DNA of 54,473 nt. Source: Dehalococcoidia bacterium (GTDB taxonomy: Bacteria; Chloroflexota; Dehalococcoidia; Lucifugimonadales; UBA3495). This document shows positions 47,549-52,018 of this stretch, in pieces. The stretch lies in assembly GCA_009692925.1 (NCBI GenBank), contig SHYG01000003.1, positions 1 to 54,473 of the forward strand, in the 5' to 3' direction. Position 1 is the first letter of the stretch. Each line of letters starts with the position of its first letter. Position numbers and translations under genes: made by a program. Under the pieces are notes generated by a model. It was given only the letters and a program-made list of their open reading frames with translations. It did no database searches and was not told the origin of the DNA.

Positions 47549-48001
47549 CTATCCCTGGCGCCGGCGGCTCCGCTCGTACACAGTGAGGAAGGCGTCCACT
47601 GATGTGCTGGCAATGGCCCGGCCAATGGCGTCTAAAGGCAGGTCGTCCAGCTTCTTGAACCGCACGCAGGACTTGCCCATGTTCAGCTTCTTGTCCGCGC
47701 GGGCAAACTCGGCCCGCAGCCACGCCTCGGCTGATTGCTCCATGTACACGGCCGTGAGGTACAGGGAGCAGTAGTTCTTCTGGGAAGCCAGGGCGGCGTA
47801 CATCAGAGGCTGCTTGTTGTAGGTTTTGGGGTACCGCTCCAGGGTCACCTCGTAGCAGAGGCCTCCCCACCGCATAGCCTCAGCGTACCTCGCCGGCAGG
47901 TTGTCCAGGACGATCTGGCGCAGGGCGGCAATGGTCTGCTGGCGTTCCTGAGGCAGGGCGCTCAGATAGGCTTCAGGGGTGGTCGCAGCGCTCTTGACCA
48001 C
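47549..48001 (-). CDS. DUF1801 domain protein
   Basis: YL..LP.ER, YPKTYNKQPL.YAALASQKNY.SLY, MGKSCVRF. Confidence 0.85.
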   Translation of the reverse strand: MVKSAATTPEAYLSALPQERQQTIAALRQIVLDNLPARYAEAMRWGGLCYEVTLERYPKTYNKQPLMYAALASQKNYCSLYLTAVYMEQSAEAWLRAEFARADKKLNMGKSCVRFKKLDDLPLDAIGRAIASTSVDAFLTVYERSRRRQG

Positions 48002-48076
48002 GGATTATAGTCTTCCCAAAAGGCGCTTGGCGCTTGGATGGCAGGAGGAGTGCGGGTCAAGTACCAGTGGGTCGGC

Positions 48077-48168
48077 TGGCGGAGAGGGCGGGATTCGAAC
48101 CCGCGAGAGACTTGTGAGCCCCTACACGATTTCCAGTCGTGCCCGTTCGACCACTCCGGCACCTCTCC
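48077..48168 (-). tRNA. tRNA-Ser (anticodon GGA)
   Basis: GGAGAGG/CCTCTCC acceptor stem, CACGA-CTGGAAA-TCGTG anticodon arm, long variable arm, GGTTCGAATCC, encoded CCA. Confidence 0.96.
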
Positions 48169-48300
48169 AGCAATGCGGGGCCTTTCAGCCGGGACGGTAT
48201 TATAGCCAACCGCCGCTTTCTCGTCCATGTCGCCCATCGCCAGTCCCGGTCGGGTTTATCCCGCTGCCCAGGGCCATCGCCGTCCCCAGATTCAAAATTA

Positions 48301-48329
48301 TTGACAAAATATATACCTGATATTAAACT
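48301..48329 (+). promoter_or_regulatory. Sigma70-type promoter of the transporter operon
   Basis: TTGACA-17-TAAACT; predicted start about 48336. Confidence 0.75.
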
Positions 48330-48337
48330 GCCTGAAT

Positions 48338-48451
48338 GTGCGCAACGCCGTCATCACGTTCCGCTCTCCGCGGTTTGCCGCCGGCTTCGTTTGAGTCCCC
48401 GCCTGCGGGGCCTGGACAGGCTGGCGGTCCCACGGTGGCGTTACCTCTTAG
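48338..48451 (+). promoter_or_regulatory. Candidate leader peptide with in-frame UGA (Sec?) and SECIS-like hairpin
   Basis: GTG-RNAVITFRSPRFAAGFV-TGA(48392-48394)-VPACGAWTGWRSHGGVTS-TAG; 28 of 35 sense codons end in G/C; stem-loop with GGAC loop 19 nt after the TGA. Confidence 0.5.
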
Positions 48452-48477
48452 CTCCCCGGTTCGTTGCCACCATTAGA

Positions 48478-48575
48478 CCTCCTGCTTTCTGCCCCACAGG
48501 CATGCCGCTGGAATGCCGCATACGGTGGTCCCGATTCGCCTTTGGGTCAGCAAAAACATTTGGGTTAGCAGGAGG
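48478..48575 (+). promoter_or_regulatory. Anti-Shine-Dalgarno / SD pair
   Basis: CCTCCTGCT (48478-48486) is perfectly complementary to AGCAGGAGG (48567-48575). Confidence 0.6.
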
Positions 48576-48583
48576 GTTCTTTA

Positions 48584-49528
48584 ATGCTTCAGATGTTTCA
48601 GAGGTTTAGTGCCCGCAGACTTGTCCTGGTGGTATTCTCCGCATTGATTTTGGCAGCAGGCATCGTCGCCTGCGGGCCCGCCGTAGCACCTACTCCCGCC
48701 GCTCCTGCGGCAACTCCGGCGCCGCCGACTCTCAAGATTGGCGGCATTCCCGACCAGAACGCCGCCACTTTGGCCCGCCGCTACGACAGCTTCGCCGCCT
48801 ACATGTCCAAGGAGCTGGGGGTGCAGGTGCAGTATGTGCCCAGCGTGGACTACGCCGCGGTGGTGACCGCCTTCACCCAGGGGGAGCTGCAACTGGCCTT
48901 CTTCGGCGGGCTCACCGGGGCCCAGGCCCGGCTGCAAAACCCCGGCGCGCTGGCCATTGTCCAGCGGGAGAACGACGCCAAGTTCCACTCCCGGTTCATC
49001 GTGCGCAGCGAGCTGCCGGTGAAGTCGTTGGAAGAGCTGAAAACCCAGGCCAAAAGCCTGACCATCACGTTCGGCAGTGAAAGCTCCACCTCCGGCCACC
49101 TGATGCCCCGCCACTTCCTAGTCCAGGCCGGCATAGACCCCGCCACCGCCTTCAAGACGGTGCCCAACTTCTCCGGCTCCCACGACCTGACCTGGCAGTT
49201 GGTGCAGAGCGGCTCCTTCGACGTGGGGGCGCTGAACGAGGATGTGTGGACGGCGGCAGTAAAGGCCGGCAAGATTGACCCGGCCAAGGTGCGTGAGTTC
49301 TACACCACTCCCGAGTATGTGGACTACCACTGGCTGGCCCACCCTGGCTTGGACAAGACCTACGGCGCCGGCTTTACCAGCAAGGCCAAGCAGGCGCTGC
49401 TGAAGCTGAACCTGCAGGAGAACAAGGAGATTCTGGGCCTGTTCGCCACCCAGAAGTTCATCGAGACCAGCAACGCCAACTACCAGCCCATCGAGCAGAT
49501 TGGCCGCAACCTGGGGATAATCAAGTAG
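48584..49528 (+). CDS. PhnD-like ABC substrate-binding lipoprotein, resembling the putative selenate-transporter subfamily
   Basis: IVACG lipobox; IPDQ, DYAAVVTAF, FGGLTG.QAR, FGSESSTSG.LMP, FSGSHD.T..LVQSG. Subfamily is recognised from memory of TIGR04553-type proteins, not searched. Confidence 0.75.
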   Translation: MLQMFQRFSARRLVLVVFSALILAAGIVACGPAVAPTPAAPAATPAPPTLKIGGIPDQNAATLARRYDSFAAYMSKELGVQVQYVPSVDYAAVVTAFTQGELQLAFFGGLTGAQARLQNPGALAIVQRENDAKFHSRFIVRSELPVKSLEELKTQAKSLTITFGSESSTSGHLMPRHFLVQAGIDPATAFKTVPNFSGSHDLTWQLVQSGSFDVGALNEDVWTAAVKAGKIDPAKVREFYTTPEYVDYHWLAHPGLDKTYGAGFTSKAKQALLKLNLQENKEILGLFATQKFIETSNANYQPIEQIGRNLGIIK

Positions 49529-50341
49529 ATGGCTGATTCTCGACACCACGCGGCAGTCGCTGCCCCGGCCGCCACTCACGTGGTGGTCAAGGATGTTGCC
49601 AAGGGCTACCCTGGGGTGCGGGCTTTGGCCCCCATCGCGTTCAGCGTGCAGCCCGGCGAGCGGTTGGCCCTGGCCGGGCCCAGCGGCAGCGGCAAGACCA
49701 CGCTGCTGTACCTGCTGGCGGGCCTGCTGCAGCCCGACGCCGGCCAGCTGTGCATTGACGGGCGTGACCTGGCGGAGATGAGGCCCGGCCGGGAGCTGGC
49801 TCGGCTGGTGGGCATGGTGCACCAGCAGTACGATCTGGTGTCCTCCCTGCCGGTGCTTCACAACGTGCTGGCCGGGCGGCTGGGCCAGTGGAGCCTGGCG
49901 GGTTCAGCCCTCTCCCTCATCTGGCCCCGGGAGCGGCATCTGGCGGAGGAGGCCCTGGCCCGGCTGGGCATCGCCGACAAGGCCAGCCAGCGCACCTCCC
50001 GCCTTTCCGGCGGTGAGCAGCAGCGGGTGGCCATCGCCCGGCTCATGCTGCAGTCGCCCCGCATCATCCTGGCCGACGAGCCGGTGTCATCCCTGGACCC
50101 CGCTCTGGCGGAGGAGATGATGCGCCTGCTGGTGGACCTCGTGGAAGGCTCCGGCAAGACCCTCATCGCCAGCCTGCACTCGCCCTATCTCATCAAGAAG
50201 TACTGCACCCGGGTCATCGGGCTGCGCCAGGGGGAGATGCAGTTCGACCTGCCCGCCGCCGACCTGACGGAGGCGGTGCTGGACCGCCTCTACGACCTGG
50301 ACCGCCGGCGTCCTGAGAACGGCGCAATACGGCAGGAGTGA
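49529..50341 (+). CDS. PhnC-like ABC ATPase
   Basis: GPSGSGKT, HNVLAGRLG, LSGGEQQRVAIAR, ADEPVSSLDP. Confidence 0.9.
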   Translation: MADSRHHAAVAAPAATHVVVKDVAKGYPGVRALAPIAFSVQPGERLALAGPSGSGKTTLLYLLAGLLQPDAGQLCIDGRDLAEMRPGRELARLVGMVHQQYDLVSSLPVLHNVLAGRLGQWSLAGSALSLIWPRERHLAEEALARLGIADKASQRTSRLSGGEQQRVAIARLMLQSPRIILADEPVSSLDPALAEEMMRLLVDLVEGSGKTLIASLHSPYLIKKYCTRVIGLRQGEMQFDLPAADLTEAVLDRLYDLDRRRPENGAIRQE

Positions 50342-50345
50342 GGCG

Positions 50346-51128
50346 CTGAAGCTATCCGATAGCCGCGGCCTGCTGACCCTGCTGCTGCTGGGGGCATTCC
50401 TCTGGAGCCTAACGGGCGTGGACTGGGGAGGCTCCCTGATTCACAGCGGCGGTGGCGGCGCCGCCCGCACCTTCTTCCTGGCCCTCTTCCCGCCAGACCT
50501 GTCCCCCGAGTTTCTCCGCATCAGCCTGGCCGCCACGTGGCCCACCCTGGCCTACGCCGTGGCGGGCATGACCGTGGCGGTGCTCATCGGCCTGCCGTTA
50601 GGCATACTGGCCTCAGGCACTGTAATTTCTGTGCCGCGCCTGCGGTGGCCGGTGGCGCTGGCATCCCGGTTCTCCCTGGGCGGGATGCGGGCCATCCATG
50701 AGTTGGTGTGGGCGGTGCTCTTCGTGGCCGCCTTTGGCCTCTCGCCCTTGGTGGCGGTGCTGGCATTGGGCATCCCCTACGGCGGCATCCTGGGGCGCAT
50801 CTACTCGGAGCTGCTCCACGACGTGCCGCCCGAGCCGCTGCGGGCGCTGCGGACCGCCGGTGCGTCGCCGGTGCGCCAGCTGCTGTACGGGCGCATCCCC
50901 CTGGCCCTGCCGGACATGGTGGGCTACACCTTCTACCGCTTCGAGTGCGCCATCCGTTCGGCGGCTATCATGAGCTTTGTGGGTATTCAGGGACTGGGGT
51001 ATCAGCTACAGTTGTCGCTGAACGACCTGCTGTTCCGGCAGGTGTGGACGCTGCTCCTGTTCATGCTGGTGCTGGTGGTGCTGGTGGACCAGTGGAGCTC
51101 CCTGGTGCGCCGGAAGCTGGCGTCCTGA
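50346..51128 (+). CDS. PhnE-like ABC permease 1, probable CTG start
   Basis: RAIHELVWA, YRFECAIRSA; frame is open upstream of GTG 50418 through a TM helix to CTG 50346, 7 nt after AGGAG. Confidence 0.85.
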   Translation: MKLSDSRGLLTLLLLGAFLWSLTGVDWGGSLIHSGGGGAARTFFLALFPPDLSPEFLRISLAATWPTLAYAVAGMTVAVLIGLPLGILASGTVISVPRLRWPVALASRFSLGGMRAIHELVWAVLFVAAFGLSPLVAVLALGIPYGGILGRIYSELLHDVPPEPLRALRTAGASPVRQLLYGRIPLALPDMVGYTFYRFECAIRSAAIMSFVGIQGLGYQLQLSLNDLLFRQVWTLLLFMLVLVVLVDQWSSLVRRKLAS

Positions 51129-52018
51129 TGGAGGCGAGGGAGAGGCCCACCCGGTCTGCCTCGGCCAGTCCCAAGCCCGGTGGGGTGGTCCGGCTCTCCA
51201 TGCTGGGACTGCTGGCGCTGGCGGCGGCCTCCTGGGGCTACCTGGTGTTCGGCGTAGACCGGGATTTCCCCAACCTGCTGGCTGCGGATACGTGGCAGGG
51301 AGCCGGGCGCTTGTTGGGCCAGATGCTTGGCAGAGACTCAACTTCTCCTCCGGCTTACACCCAGTGGGACCGGTGGCTGGAGACCGGCAAGCTGGCGTAC
51401 CAGACCCTGACCATGAGCGTGCTGGCCATCGGCCTGGCGGGCATCGGCGTGCTGGTGACCTTCCTGCCGGCGGCCCGCAACGTGAGTCACGGCGGCCTGG
51501 GCGGCGCGTCGTCTCGGCCCTGGCGGGTGCTGCATCACGTCATACGGCTGGTGTACAACCTCACCCGCGCCGTGCCCGAGCTGGTTTGGGCCATGATCAT
51601 CGTGTTCTTCCTGTCGCCGGGGTTGCTGCCCGGCGCGGTGGCCCTGGCCCTGCACAACTTCGGCATCGTGGGCAAGTTGTCGGCAGAGGTGGTGGAGAAC
51701 CTGGACCCCGCGCCTAGCCGCGCACTTCGGGCGGCCGGGGCCAGCAACACCCAGATGCTGCTGTACGGCATTCTGCCCCAGGCGTTGCCCCATTTCCTGA
51801 CCTACCTGCTCTATCGCTGGGAAGTGGTCATCCGCACCACGGTGGTGGTGGGCTTTGTGGCCGCCGGCGGCATGGGGCGGGAGTTCCGCCTGAGCCTGAG
51901 CTACTTTCACTACACGGATGTTGCCCTGCTGCTGATGTGGTACATGATTCTGGTCACCGGCGTGGACCTGCTCAGCGCGTTGCTGCGCCGCATGGCGCTC
52001 CCTCCGCCGGTGCGGTAA
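51128..52018 (+). CDS. PhnE-like ABC permease 2
   Basis: RAVPELVWA, ALALHN.G..GKL, YRWEVVIR; ATG overlaps the previous TGA. Confidence 0.88.
   Translation: MEARERPTRSASASPKPGGVVRLSMLGLLALAAASWGYLVFGVDRDFPNLLAADTWQGAGRLLGQMLGRDSTSPPAYTQWDRWLETGKLAYQTLTMSVLAIGLAGIGVLVTFLPAARNVSHGGLGGASSRPWRVLHHVIRLVYNLTRAVPELVWAMIIVFFLSPGLLPGAVALALHNFGIVGKLSAEVVENLDPAPSRALRAAGASNTQMLLYGILPQALPHFLTYLLYRWEVVIRTTVVVGFVAAGGMGREFRLSLSYFHYTDVALLLMWYMILVTGVDLLSALLRRMALPPPVR

What the first reader, a model, noticed from the sequence alone, without database searches (positions are those of the whole stretch)
48338..48451. Candidate selenocysteine-sensing leader peptide ahead of a putative selenium-oxyanion ABC transporter
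Seen: right after a TTGACA-17-TAAACT promoter is a near-leaderless frame, MRNAVITFRSPRFAAGFV-UGA-VPACGAWTGWRSHGGVTS-UAG. G/C-ending codons are 14/17 before and 14/18 after the UGA, against 26/45 in the overlapping ATG frame, suggesting coding through the UGA. After the UGA comes a stem-loop: CCGCC 48399-48403 / GGCGG 48423-48427 and GGCCU 48409-48413 / AGGCU 48418-48422, with a GGAC loop 19 nt downstream. Established: bacterial SECIS elements lie just 3' of the UGA with G at the start of the apical loop, and amino-acid attenuators sense charged tRNA through leader codons. The next gene resembles the PhnD subfamily annotated as a putative selenate transporter. Inference: UGA read-through reports Sec-tRNA supply and so selenium status, a Sec-codon attenuator I do not know to be described. 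Caveats: the GTG has no SD, the substrate is unproven, and no sel genes are in this window.
Basis: partly seen in the sequence, partly recalled or inferred. Interest (0 to 1): 0.88.

Follow-up and report, generated by a model that had tools for sequence, protein, structure and literature searches.

The report
Conserved UGA-ending leader before selenium-linked transporter
A tiny upstream reading frame that always ends Gly-Phe-Thr-UGA and is followed by a hairpin shaped and spaced like a selenocysteine insertion signal sits in front of a phosphonate-type ABC importer in many selenocysteine-using Chloroflexota, and may be a ribosome-based selenium sensor of a kind not yet described.

Summary

The genome has selA, selB, tRNA-Sec and a Sec-containing selD. 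The binding protein scores 313 bits on TIGR04553 (cut-off 250).

Roughly 60 distinct orthologous leaders from at least six sequence variants keep three features:
- a short ORF of 4-19 codons with an unconserved N-terminus;
- a C-terminus [G/E]-[F/Y]-[T/V/A], conserved at the peptide level: all four Gly codons and both Phe codons are used;
- a stop that was TGA in every leader found.

In 54 of 58 unique leaders a hairpin with a GG-containing loop starts 18-21 nt after the UGA, against about 9-16% in controls. This fits the published bacterial SECIS model.

No terminator is present. The leader sequesters the importer's Shine-Dalgarno site instead.

Best reading (about 0.55): ribosome dwell at the UGA, set by SelB and Sec-tRNA supply, opens the ribosome-binding site.

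The main doubts are these:
- The G-F-T motif looks like an arrest peptide.
- The nearest characterised homologues bind phosphite or phosphate.
- Sec use is common in this class, so co-occurrence says little.
- Nothing has been tested experimentally.

No such element turned up in my literature searches.

The parts
48301..48329 (+). Sigma-70-type promoter TTGACA-17-TAAACT
   Evidence: 10 of 12 matches. The hexamers and spacing are conserved in orthologous variant-A leaders.
48338..48394 (+). Leader ORF1: GTG plus 17 codons (MRNAVITFRSPRFAAGFV) ending in TGA. The start lies 8 nt after the -10 box, so the mRNA is near-leaderless.
   Evidence: Upstream of the TGA, frame 0 has a synonymous share of changed codons of 0.34, against 0.09 in the other frames.
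48392..48394 (+). In-frame UGA, the candidate Sec or stall codon
   Evidence: TGA in every leader found (the regex also allowed TAA and TAG). The base after it is G in 51, C in 8 and A in 6 of 65.
48399..48427 (+). Two-tier SECIS-like hairpin: CCGCC/GGCGG lower stem, UGCGG bulge, GGCCU/AGGCU upper stem, GGAC apical loop starting 19 nt after the UGA
   Evidence: -13.5 kcal/mol, exactly this structure. (hairpin test positive, loop start 19).
48395..48451 (+). Frame-0 extension that would be read if the UGA were decoded (VPACGAWTGWRSHGGVTS, then UAG)
   Evidence: It is not conserved as protein. In other leaders the next frame-0 stop comes after 1-4 codons in 12 of 59.
48478..48486 (+). Anti-Shine-Dalgarno CCUCCUGCU
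   Evidence: It pairs with 48567-48575 in the MFE fold. The partner pairing is kept with a compensatory change in L015, L190 and L251.
48499..48517 (+). Second conserved block, a small hairpin GGCAUGCC-GCU-GGAAUGCC
   Evidence: Conserved in alignment A1 and paired in the fold. The structure was otherwise judged by eye.
48567..48575 (+). Shine-Dalgarno region AGCAGGAGG of the binding-protein gene
48584..49528 (+). Periplasmic substrate-binding protein, TIGR04553 ('putative selenate ABC transporter SBP'), PhnD1-like
49529..50341 (+). PhnC-like ABC ATPase
50418..52018 (+). Two PhnE-like permease domains or genes (ORFs 50418-51128 and 50708-52018, in different frames)

Best explanation
The element is a translated leader that works as a ribosome-based selenium sensor for a TIGR04553-type ABC importer.

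The mRNA starts at or next to the ORF1 start codon. A ribosome translates 4-19 codons ending Gly-Phe-Thr (Val in this window) and arrives at a UGA. That UGA is followed by a SECIS-type hairpin whose GG-containing apical loop sits 18-21 nt downstream.

When Sec-tRNA(Sec)-SelB-GTP is plentiful, the UGA is decoded quickly. The ribosome moves on, terminates a few codons later, and the leader refolds. The anti-SD (48478-48486) then pairs with the importer's SD (48567-48575), and the importer is OFF.

When selenium, and so Sec-tRNA, is scarce, the ribosome dwells at the UGA. The Gly-Phe-Thr end may slow RF2. The waiting ribosome holds open the RNA just downstream and redirects folding, so the SD is free and the importer is ON.

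Shown here:
- the ORF is under peptide-level selection;
- the UGA was found in every leader;
- the hairpin has SECIS-like geometry;
- the SD is sequestered;
- Sec machinery is present.

Inferred:
- SelB binds the hairpin;
- the UGA is decoded as Sec;
- dwell time is what is sensed;
- the direction of regulation;
- the cargo is a selenium oxyanion.
For: 1. The ORF is translated. In-frame start to TGA is kept in 9 of 9 variant-A leaders despite length changes of 45-54 nt. Among 65 unique leaders, position -3 uses GGC 44, GGA 8, GGT 8, GGG 2. Position -2 uses TTC 48, TTT 16. Position -1 uses ACC 46, ACT 13, ACG 1. Upstream of the TGA, frame 0 has a synonymous share of 0.34 against 0.09 in the other frames.

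2. The stop is TGA in every leader found, across variants A-F and an AT-rich form. The regex also allowed TAA and TAG.

3. SECIS-like geometry holds. 54 of 58 unique leaders have a hairpin with a stem of at least 4 bp, a 4-9 nt loop, GG in the first four loop bases, and a loop start 18-21 nt after the UGA. The control rates are 90 of 1032 ordinary TGA stops in this genome, 511 of 5000 random TGAs and 457 of 2900 shuffles. Other 4-nt position windows give 3-32 of 58. The hairpin sequences differ between variants: GGCC-UGGAYU-GGYY, CCACUC-CGGGNNY-GAGUGG, AGAGG-CGGAGGGUN-CCUCU and GGGCG-WGGUG-CGUYC. In variant C, 4 of 17 pairs show compensatory changes.

4. The published bacterial SECIS model is met by the window's hairpin (-13.5 kcal/mol). 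That model requires a 3-9 nt loop, a 4-16 bp stem, G in the first two loop positions, 16-37 nt spacing and MFE of -7.5 or lower (passages of PMC13188914).

5. In variant-B genomes the genome's own selD SECIS has the same 12-13 nt spacer and a CGGG loop, as the leader hairpin does.

6. Sec decoding is evident in every leader-bearing genome tested: selA or a Sec-containing selD in 58 of 58 by my tally over.

7. TIGR04553 goes with Sec genomes. 32 of 33 TIGR04553-positive genomes of the class sample have selA, against 298 of 401 overall. In the order sample the figure is 70 of 73.

8. The SD is paired in MFE folds of all ten representative leaders. In the minimal variant E the anti-SD lies 7-14 nt after the UGA. 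By recalled ribosome-footprint geometry, a ribosome waiting at the UGA would cover that stretch.

9. Picocyanobacterial members of the family lack the leader, and the one cyanobacterial genome tested (Synechococcus WH7803) lacks selA.
Against: - Gly-Phe-Thr conservation at the peptide level is not a known requirement for Sec insertion. It is typical of peptides that act at termination.
- After the UGA, frame 0 is not conserved (synonymous share 0.11). It stops after 1-4 codons in 12 of 59 leaders. In variant D a second in-frame UGA follows one codon later.
- In variant A, RNAalifold finds no covariation-supported hairpin. The 18-21 nt test was designed after I had looked at the data.
- Bona fide SECIS elements in these genomes are heterogeneous. 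Loops include GUC, GGUU, GUA and UUU, and spacing ranges from 12 to 27 nt. Resemblance is therefore not specific.
- The Sec trait is common: 74% of the class sample. Leader-less TIGR04553 operons also occur in Sec users.
- The nearest characterised proteins bind phosphite more tightly than phosphate or methylphosphonate (7S6G at E 5.7e-77; 5LQ5). TIGR04553 is only a 'hypoth_equivalog'.
- I saw no UGA/Cys-codon exchange among leaders.
Confidence: 0.55

Rival explanations
1. The leader is a nascent-peptide and release-factor arrest switch of the TnaC/SpeFL type. The Gly-Phe-Thr end of the peptide, with UGA in the A site, inhibits RF2-mediated release, perhaps only when a small ligand such as the transported oxyanion is present. 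The stalled ribosome opens the SD-sequestering fold. The UGA matters because only RF2 reads it, and Sec plays no part.
For: - G-F-T is conserved at the peptide level directly before the stop.
- The stop codon was the same in every leader found.
- The anti-SD lies within reach of a ribosome waiting at the stop in variant E.
- There is no coding constraint after the UGA.
- Characterised homologues bind phosphorus oxyanions, not known selenium compounds.
Against: - The ORF can be as short as 4-8 codons and its N-terminal part is not conserved. That leaves no tunnel pocket like those of TnaC or SpeFL (their features are recalled, not tested here).
- It does not explain why unrelated hairpins keep a GG loop 18-21 nt after the UGA.
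- It does not explain why the variant-B hairpin, which starts 12-13 nt downstream and by recalled footprint geometry would lie outside a stalled ribosome, is invariant.
Confidence: 0.2
2. The leader is an ordinary upstream ORF that opens the importer's ribosome-binding site by translational coupling. Regulation is exerted elsewhere: at leaderless initiation, at the promoter, or by a protein or metabolite binding the structured leader. The UGA and hairpin geometry would then be inherited features of no sensing value.
For: - SD sequestration and a translated ORF are all that is strictly shown.
- RNAalifold support for the variant-A hairpin is weak.
- The z-score of the whole leader fold is only -1.58.
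- Many orthologous operons do without the leader. Some appear to have a divergent LysR-type gene instead, a reading made by eye and not verified.
Against: - It does not account for the same G-F-T-UGA ending recurring in every leader found, across about 60 leaders whose remaining sequence has diverged beyond alignment.
- It does not account for the kept 18-21 nt loop spacing.
Confidence: 0.12
3. Variant A holds two coupled small ORFs. ORF1 stops at the UGA, and a second ORF starts at the overlapping NUG (UUGA, GUGA or CUGA) in the -1 frame. ORF2 would encode S-P-x-L-R-G-L-D-x-x-A-V-P, so the conserved GGGGCCUGGA would be coding sequence rather than RNA structure.
For: After the TGA, the -1 frame has a synonymous share of 0.35-0.37, against 0.05-0.12 in the other frames. 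A start-type codon overlaps the stop in 10 of 10 variant-A leaders.
Against: - Two further variant-A leaders (L242, L243) have a TAG in that frame, read by eye from the sequences printed.
- ORF2 length is not conserved, ranging from 18 to 72 codons.
- Variants B and F have 1-nt length differences that break any frame.
- The same bases form the 5' arm and loop of the hairpin scored.
Confidence: 0.05

Closest known systems
Bacterial SECIS elements in selenoprotein genes (E. coli fdhF type; bSECIS consensus)
   Same: An in-frame UGA is followed at once by a two-tier hairpin. It has a small apical loop with G in its first positions and a loop about 18-21 nt from the UGA. It meets all four constraints of the published model (passages of PMC13188914).
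   Different: It sits in a 4-19 codon leader ORF, not in an enzyme's active site. There is no Cys-containing homologue. The read-through product is not conserved. A conserved G-F-T precedes the UGA.
E. coli selAB 5'-UTR SECIS-like element bound by SelB-GTP-Sec-tRNA
   Same: This is a SECIS-type hairpin in a 5' leader that reports Sec-tRNA status and acts on translation initiation. I saw the passage in bioRxiv 10.64898/2026.03.03.709296.
   Different: That element has no UGA and no leader ORF, and SelB binding itself blocks the SD 3 nt away. Here a translated ORF delivers a ribosome to a UGA, and the SD is about 175 nt downstream.
Selenium control of fdhF(Sec) transcription by translational coupling at the UGA in Treponema primitia
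   Same: Decoding of a Sec-UGA is used as the read-out of selenium supply for expression downstream (abstract of PMC3892789).
   Different: There the UGA lies inside the enzyme gene itself, and the effect is transcriptional polarity. It is not a dedicated leader peptide controlling another gene's ribosome-binding site.
Ribosome-stalling leader peptides (trp/his attenuators, ermC, tnaC)
   Same: A short translated leader is involved. The position of the ribosome decides between alternative RNA folds, and the downstream SD is sequestered in the default fold. The features of these systems are recalled, not tested here.
   Different: There is no terminator and no run of regulatory sense codons. 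The sensed codon would be a recoded stop codon with its own RNA signal.
Picocyanobacterial PhnD1 (PDB 7S6G, 5LQ5)
   Same: It belongs to the same NCBIfam family: Prochlorococcus SS51 scores 307 bits and Synechococcus WH7803 340 bits on TIGR04553. The window protein matches 7S6G at E 5.7e-77.
   Different: Those genes have no leader ORF, and the one cyanobacterial genome tested, WH7803, lacks selA. Their measured ligands are phosphite, phosphate and methylphosphonate (abstract and passages of PMC10284923).

Membership tests
Bacterial SECIS element (published bSECIS model) | In-frame UGA inside a translated reading frame | tested here: met
   The ORF is kept in frame in 9 of 9 variant-A leaders. 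Synonymous codon variation occurs at G, F and T.
Bacterial SECIS element (published bSECIS model) | Apical loop of 3-9 nt on an upper stem of 4-16 bp, with MFE of -7.5 kcal/mol or lower | tested here: met
   In the window the loop is GGAC, the upper stem is 5 bp and the lower stem is 5 bp, at -13.5 kcal/mol. Model constraints come from passages of PMC13188914.
Bacterial SECIS element (published bSECIS model) | G in the first two loop positions, often followed by G or U | tested here: met
   The window has GGAC. 54 of 58 leaders have GG within the first four loop bases. Variant E has GUUU.
Bacterial SECIS element (published bSECIS model) | 16-37 nt between the UGA and the apical loop | tested here: met
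   19 nt in the window, and 18-21 nt in 54 of 58 leaders.
Bacterial SECIS element (published bSECIS model) | Binds SelB and directs Sec insertion | not testable with these tools
   Needs a SelB binding assay, 75Se labelling or mass spectrometry.
Bacterial SECIS element (published bSECIS model) | Homologues with Cys (UGY) in place of Sec | tested here: inconclusive
   No UGY variant was seen among the leader-less loci I read. I made no systematic search.
Amino-acid-type transcription attenuator (trp/his leaders) | Terminator and antiterminator hairpins after the leader ORF | tested here: not met
   0 terminator-like sites in 47900-48900. The SD is sequestered instead.
Amino-acid-type transcription attenuator (trp/his leaders) | Short translated leader ORF carrying the codon whose decoding is sensed | tested here: inconclusive
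   The ORF is shown. That the UGA is the sensed codon is an inference.
Stop-codon arrest peptides (TnaC/SpeFL type) | Conserved residues directly before the stop codon | tested here: met
   [G/E]-[F/Y]-[T/V/A]-UGA.
Stop-codon arrest peptides (TnaC/SpeFL type) | A longer conserved peptide that forms a ligand pocket in the exit tunnel (feature recalled) | tested here: not met
   The N-terminal parts are unconserved, and ORFs run as short as 4-8 codons.
NCBIfam TIGR04553 (putative selenate ABC transporter substrate-binding protein) | Score above the curated cut-off of 250 bits | tested here: met
   313.4 bits. The model type is 'hypoth_equivalog', so the function is a hypothesis.
NCBIfam TIGR04553 (putative selenate ABC transporter substrate-binding protein) | Binds or transports a selenium oxyanion | not testable with these tools
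   Relatives with solved structures hold phosphate or phosphite. The word 'selen' occurs 0 times in the main text of PMC10284923. Its supplementary ligand list could not be seen.

The most novel reading that the evidence does not exclude
The G-F-T-UGA leader is a dedicated selenocysteine-decoding sensor, a recoding event used as a regulatory read-out. Its presence marks TIGR04553/PhnD1-type ABC systems as the missing specific selenium importer of prokaryotes, most likely for selenite, which would resemble the phosphite these proteins bind. That would also explain why picocyanobacteria keep a phosphite-binding PhnD1 without any phosphite-using pathway.
Probability: 0.3. Interest if true: 0.92.

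Novelty: new variant of a known kind. Interest (0 to 1): 0.85.

Why it matters
Three consequences would follow if the Sec-sensing reading holds.

1. It would be the first leader-peptide switch whose sensed codon is a recoded stop. Selenium status would be read directly from the supply of Sec-tRNA at the ribosome.

2. It would give independent, regulatory evidence that this PhnD-like ABC system carries selenium. A 2026 review states that no specific high-affinity selenium transporter is known in prokaryotes (passage of PMC13188914).

3. It would make testable a new idea about the puzzling picocyanobacterial PhnD1 transporters. These bind phosphite although the cells cannot use it (abstract of PMC10284923).

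Even if Sec is not involved, a 3-residue peptide plus UGA conserved across about 60 diverged leaders is an unusually compact translational control element and deserves an experiment.

Tried and rejected
- **Rfam.** No family matched in the leader at E up to 10; only the neighbouring tRNA matched.
- **Whole-leader fold.** The z-score is only -1.58.
- **Genome-wide GGGCCTGGA search.** I searched the genome for this motif as a possible lineage SECIS motif. It is a common Gly-Leu-Asp coding string and was uninformative.
- **Strict variant-A pattern over 401 class genomes.** Of 9 genomes with hits, only the window and G207 are real. The other 7 lie in coding sequence.
- **De novo selenoprotein scan of the genome by coding potential.** It gave 281 noisy candidates. 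Only selD, two SelW-like genes and one UPHC thioredoxin-fold gene were credible by eye.
- **Lineage-specific SECIS loops mirrored by the leader.** This holds for selD in variant-B genomes. It fails for the SelW-like genes there, whose loops are GUA or UUU.
- **The UPHC protein** found no relatives in five variant-B genomes.
- **RNAalifold on variant A** gave -4.57 kcal/mol with 0 covarying pairs. A second run found only a GGCUUC/GGGGCC helix.
- **The -1 frame ORF2 idea** is kept only as a minor rival.
- **Leader peptide against NCBIfam.** The only hit was a chance SpoVM match at E 0.005, below its cut-off.
- **Other copies of the motif in this genome.** Of 18 hits, none but the window's is a leader.
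- **Regex hits in Prochlorococcus loci** are the C-terminus of a 401-codon upstream gene.
- **RNA evidence.** Only two runs hold 0.14 and 0.05 of the sampled words, and both are kept as contigs. I did not lay them, so they say nothing.
- **Literature.** The searches, and the passages read, found no description of a Sec-codon leader or of TIGR04553 function. This covers only the held library.
Full report
**What is in the window**

A strong sigma-70-type promoter, TTGACA-17-TAAACT, lies at 48301-48329. Eight bases after the -10 box a GTG at 48338 opens an 18-codon frame, MRNAVITFRSPRFAAGFV. It ends in TGA at 48392-48394. Read through, it would continue for 18 codons to TAG at 48449-48451.

It has CCGCC/GGCGG, a UGCGG bulge, GGCCU/AGGCU and a GGAC loop, and it folds in that form at -13.5 kcal/mol.

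No Rfam family matches the 250-nt leader. No terminator-like site is present.

Downstream genes are as follows:
- a PhnD-type binding protein at 48584-49528, scoring 313.4 bits on TIGR04553 against a cut-off of 250;
- a PhnC-like ATPase;
- two PhnE-like permease domains.

A tRNA-Ser(GGA) lies divergently upstream.

**The genome uses selenocysteine**

The 2.07-Mb assembly has selD with one in-frame TGA, selA, selB and a tRNA-Sec. By its nearest relatives it is a Chloroflexota/Dehalococcoidia MAG. By eye it also encodes two SelW-like CxxU proteins and a UPHC thioredoxin-fold protein.

**The leader is conserved, and its core is a peptide plus a UGA**

Nine of them have upstream sequence, and eight carry three shared features:
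- the same promoter;
- a start codon 7-9 nt after the -10 box;
- a short ORF in frame with a TGA.

The ninth, L016, has a different leader.

A sample of 401 genomes of the class holds TIGR04553 proteins above cut-off in 33. Of 28 informative upstream regions, 11 have the ORF.

A sample of 401 genomes of the order holds 97. Of the 77 upstream regions I read, 44 have it. I did not read 13 others. Eleven of those belong to a family, f3, whose other members lack the leader. Two have too little upstream sequence.

The N-terminal part of the peptide is not conserved, and its length varies from 4 to 19 codons counted from the nearest start. The end is [G/E]-[F/Y]-[T/V/A]. The codon counts at these positions are:

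| Position | Codons used |
|---|---|
| -3 | GGC 44, GGA 8, GGT 8, GGG 2 |
| -2 | TTC 48, TTT 16 |
| -1 | ACC 46, ACT 13, ACG 1 |

So selection acts on the amino acids. The stop is TGA in every leader found, although the regex also allowed TAA and TAG.

Within this genome the 12-nt motif occurs 18 times. Only the window's copy is a leader.

**What follows the UGA differs by lineage but keeps one geometry**

At least six sequence variants exist:
- Variant A, this window: GGGGCCUGGAY.
- Variant B: a 12-13 nt spacer, then CCACUC-CGGGNNY-GAGUGG.
- Variant C: a two-tier hairpin with an AGAGG-CGGAGGGUN-CCUCU top.
- Variants D and F: GGGCG-WGGUG-CGUYC.
- A g243 form.
- An AT-rich minimal form, E.

After seeing this pattern I wrote an explicit test. 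It required a stem of at least 4 bp, a loop of 4-9 nt, GG in the first four loop bases, and a loop start 18-21 nt after the UGA.

| Sequence set | Passing | Rate |
|---|---|---|
| Unique leaders | 54 of 58 | 93% |
| Ordinary TGA stops in this genome | 90 of 1032 | 8.7% |
| Random TGA trinucleotides | 511 of 5000 | 10.2% |
| Shuffled leaders | 457 of 2900 | 15.8% |

Other 4-nt position windows give 3-32 of 58. Because the test is post hoc, the contrast is overstated to some degree. It nevertheless holds across hairpins that share no sequence.

RNAalifold supports the variant-C hairpin, where 4 of 17 pairs are compensatory, and finds the D/F hairpin. For variant A it gives no covariation.

The geometry satisfies the published bacterial SECIS model. 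That model asks for a 3-9 nt loop, a 4-16 bp stem, G in the first two loop positions, 16-37 nt spacing and MFE of -7.5 or lower (passages of PMC13188914). From memory, the E. coli fdhF loop GGUC starts 18 nt after its UGA.

In variant-B genomes the selD SECIS has the same 12-13 nt spacer and a CGGG loop. Other real SECIS elements in these genomes are more varied.

**Expression platform**

In the window's MFE fold the anti-SD CCUCCUGCU (48478-48486) pairs with the SD AGCAGGAGG (48567-48575). The pairing is kept with compensatory changes in close relatives.

The SD is paired in the MFE of all ten representative leaders tested, across variants. In the minimal variant E the anti-SD lies 7-14 nt after the UGA. 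By recalled ribosome-footprint geometry, a ribosome waiting there would cover it.

The device therefore acts on translation initiation, not on transcription termination.

**Interpretation**

The simplest model that uses all conserved parts is a dwell-time sensor at the UGA. The ribosome passes quickly when Sec-tRNA-SelB is available and waits when it is not. The waiting ribosome redirects folding so that the SD is freed.

Points in its favour:
- The UGA was found in every leader.
- The hairpin is SECIS-like.
- Sec decoding is evident in all 58 leader-bearing genomes I tested.
- TIGR04553 is tied to Sec genomes: 32 of 33 against 298 of 401 in the class, and 70 of 73 in the order.

Points against:
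- Peptide-level G-F-T conservation is typical of arrest peptides.
- There is no constraint on the read-through frame, with early stops in 12 of 59 leaders and a second UGA in variant D.
- Sec use is frequent in the class.
- Leader-less operons also sit in Sec users.
- The nearest characterised proteins are picocyanobacterial PhnD1. These also pass TIGR04553 and bind phosphite, phosphate and methylphosphonate.

Those cyanobacterial genes have no leader, and the one cyanobacterial genome tested, Synechococcus WH7803, has no selA.

**An unexplained observation**

In variant A the bases after the TGA vary with a period of three in the -1 frame. The synonymous share there is 0.35-0.37, against 0.05-0.12 in the other frames. 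The frame reads S-P-x-L-R-G-L-D-x-x-A-V-P, and a start-type codon overlaps the stop. Two further variant-A leaders break that frame, by eye from the sequences printed.

**Novelty**

My searches of the held library and the passages I read turned up three related precedents:
- the E. coli selAB SECIS-like operator;
- selenium-dependent transcriptional coupling at the fdhF UGA in Treponema primitia;
- a 2026 review stating that no specific high-affinity selenium transporter is known in prokaryotes.

None of them describes a Sec-codon leader peptide.

I rate the element a new variant of known kinds, namely leader-peptide switches and SECIS-based control. My confidence in the Sec-sensing mechanism is about 0.55.

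Noticed in passing
window 48395-48455; loci L014, L015, L094-L100, L166: After the TGA, variant-A leaders vary with a period of three in the -1 frame. The frame reads S-P-x-L-[R/W/M]-G-L-D-x-x-[A/V]-V-P, with a synonymous share of 0.35-0.37 against 0.05-0.12 in the other frames. An NUG codon overlaps the UGA. This could be a second coupled ORF or a by-product of RNA constraints. L242 and L243 have a TAG in that frame.
   Followed up: partly
window 48380-48412: RNAalifold on 14 variant-A leaders pairs the Gly-Phe codons GGCUUC with the conserved GGGGCC after the UGA, enclosing the stop codon. The changes are one-sided only, with no compensatory pairs.
   Followed up: no
window 48077-48168 (-); L253 (G755): A tRNA-Ser(GGA) gene lies divergently upstream of the transporter operon. 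The same adjacency appears by eye in a related genome whose operon has no leader ORF.
   Followed up: no
L022, L031 and other picocyanobacterial loci: Marine Synechococcus and Prochlorococcus PhnD1-type proteins score above the TIGR04553 cut-off (340 and 307 bits). Synechococcus WH7803 has selD but no selA. The published puzzle is that PhnD1 binds phosphite although the cells cannot use it. That puzzle might be worth re-testing with selenite.
   Followed up: partly
L255-L257 (genus g223), L016/L254: Some close relatives have other long conserved leaders without the G-F-T-UGA ORF. One example holds GGTCTGTCAAGGCCCGGACAG. These are uncharacterised.
   Followed up: no
L180, L185, L186, L188, L191-L193, L195, L200: Leader-less TIGR04553 operons seem to have a divergently transcribed LysR-type regulator gene directly upstream. 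I judged this by eye from the sequence and did not confirm it with a family search.
   Followed up: no
L239, L240, L246, L278 (variant D): A second in-frame UGA follows the first after a single codon (UGA GCG UGA).
   Followed up: no
G000 contigs C38, C101, C15, C48: Four candidate selenoprotein genes appear in the window's genome. They are selD (CAG-U-AAK), two SelW-like genes (YCQP-U-G and YCVP-U-G) and a thioredoxin-fold protein (TPA-U-PHC). The rest of a 281-candidate scan is noise.
   Followed up: partly
window 50418-52018: The permease is listed as two overlapping ORFs in different frames (50418-51128 and 50708-52018), each matching PhnE. They are probably two adjacent permease genes, with the second starting well inside the listed ORF.
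   Followed up: no
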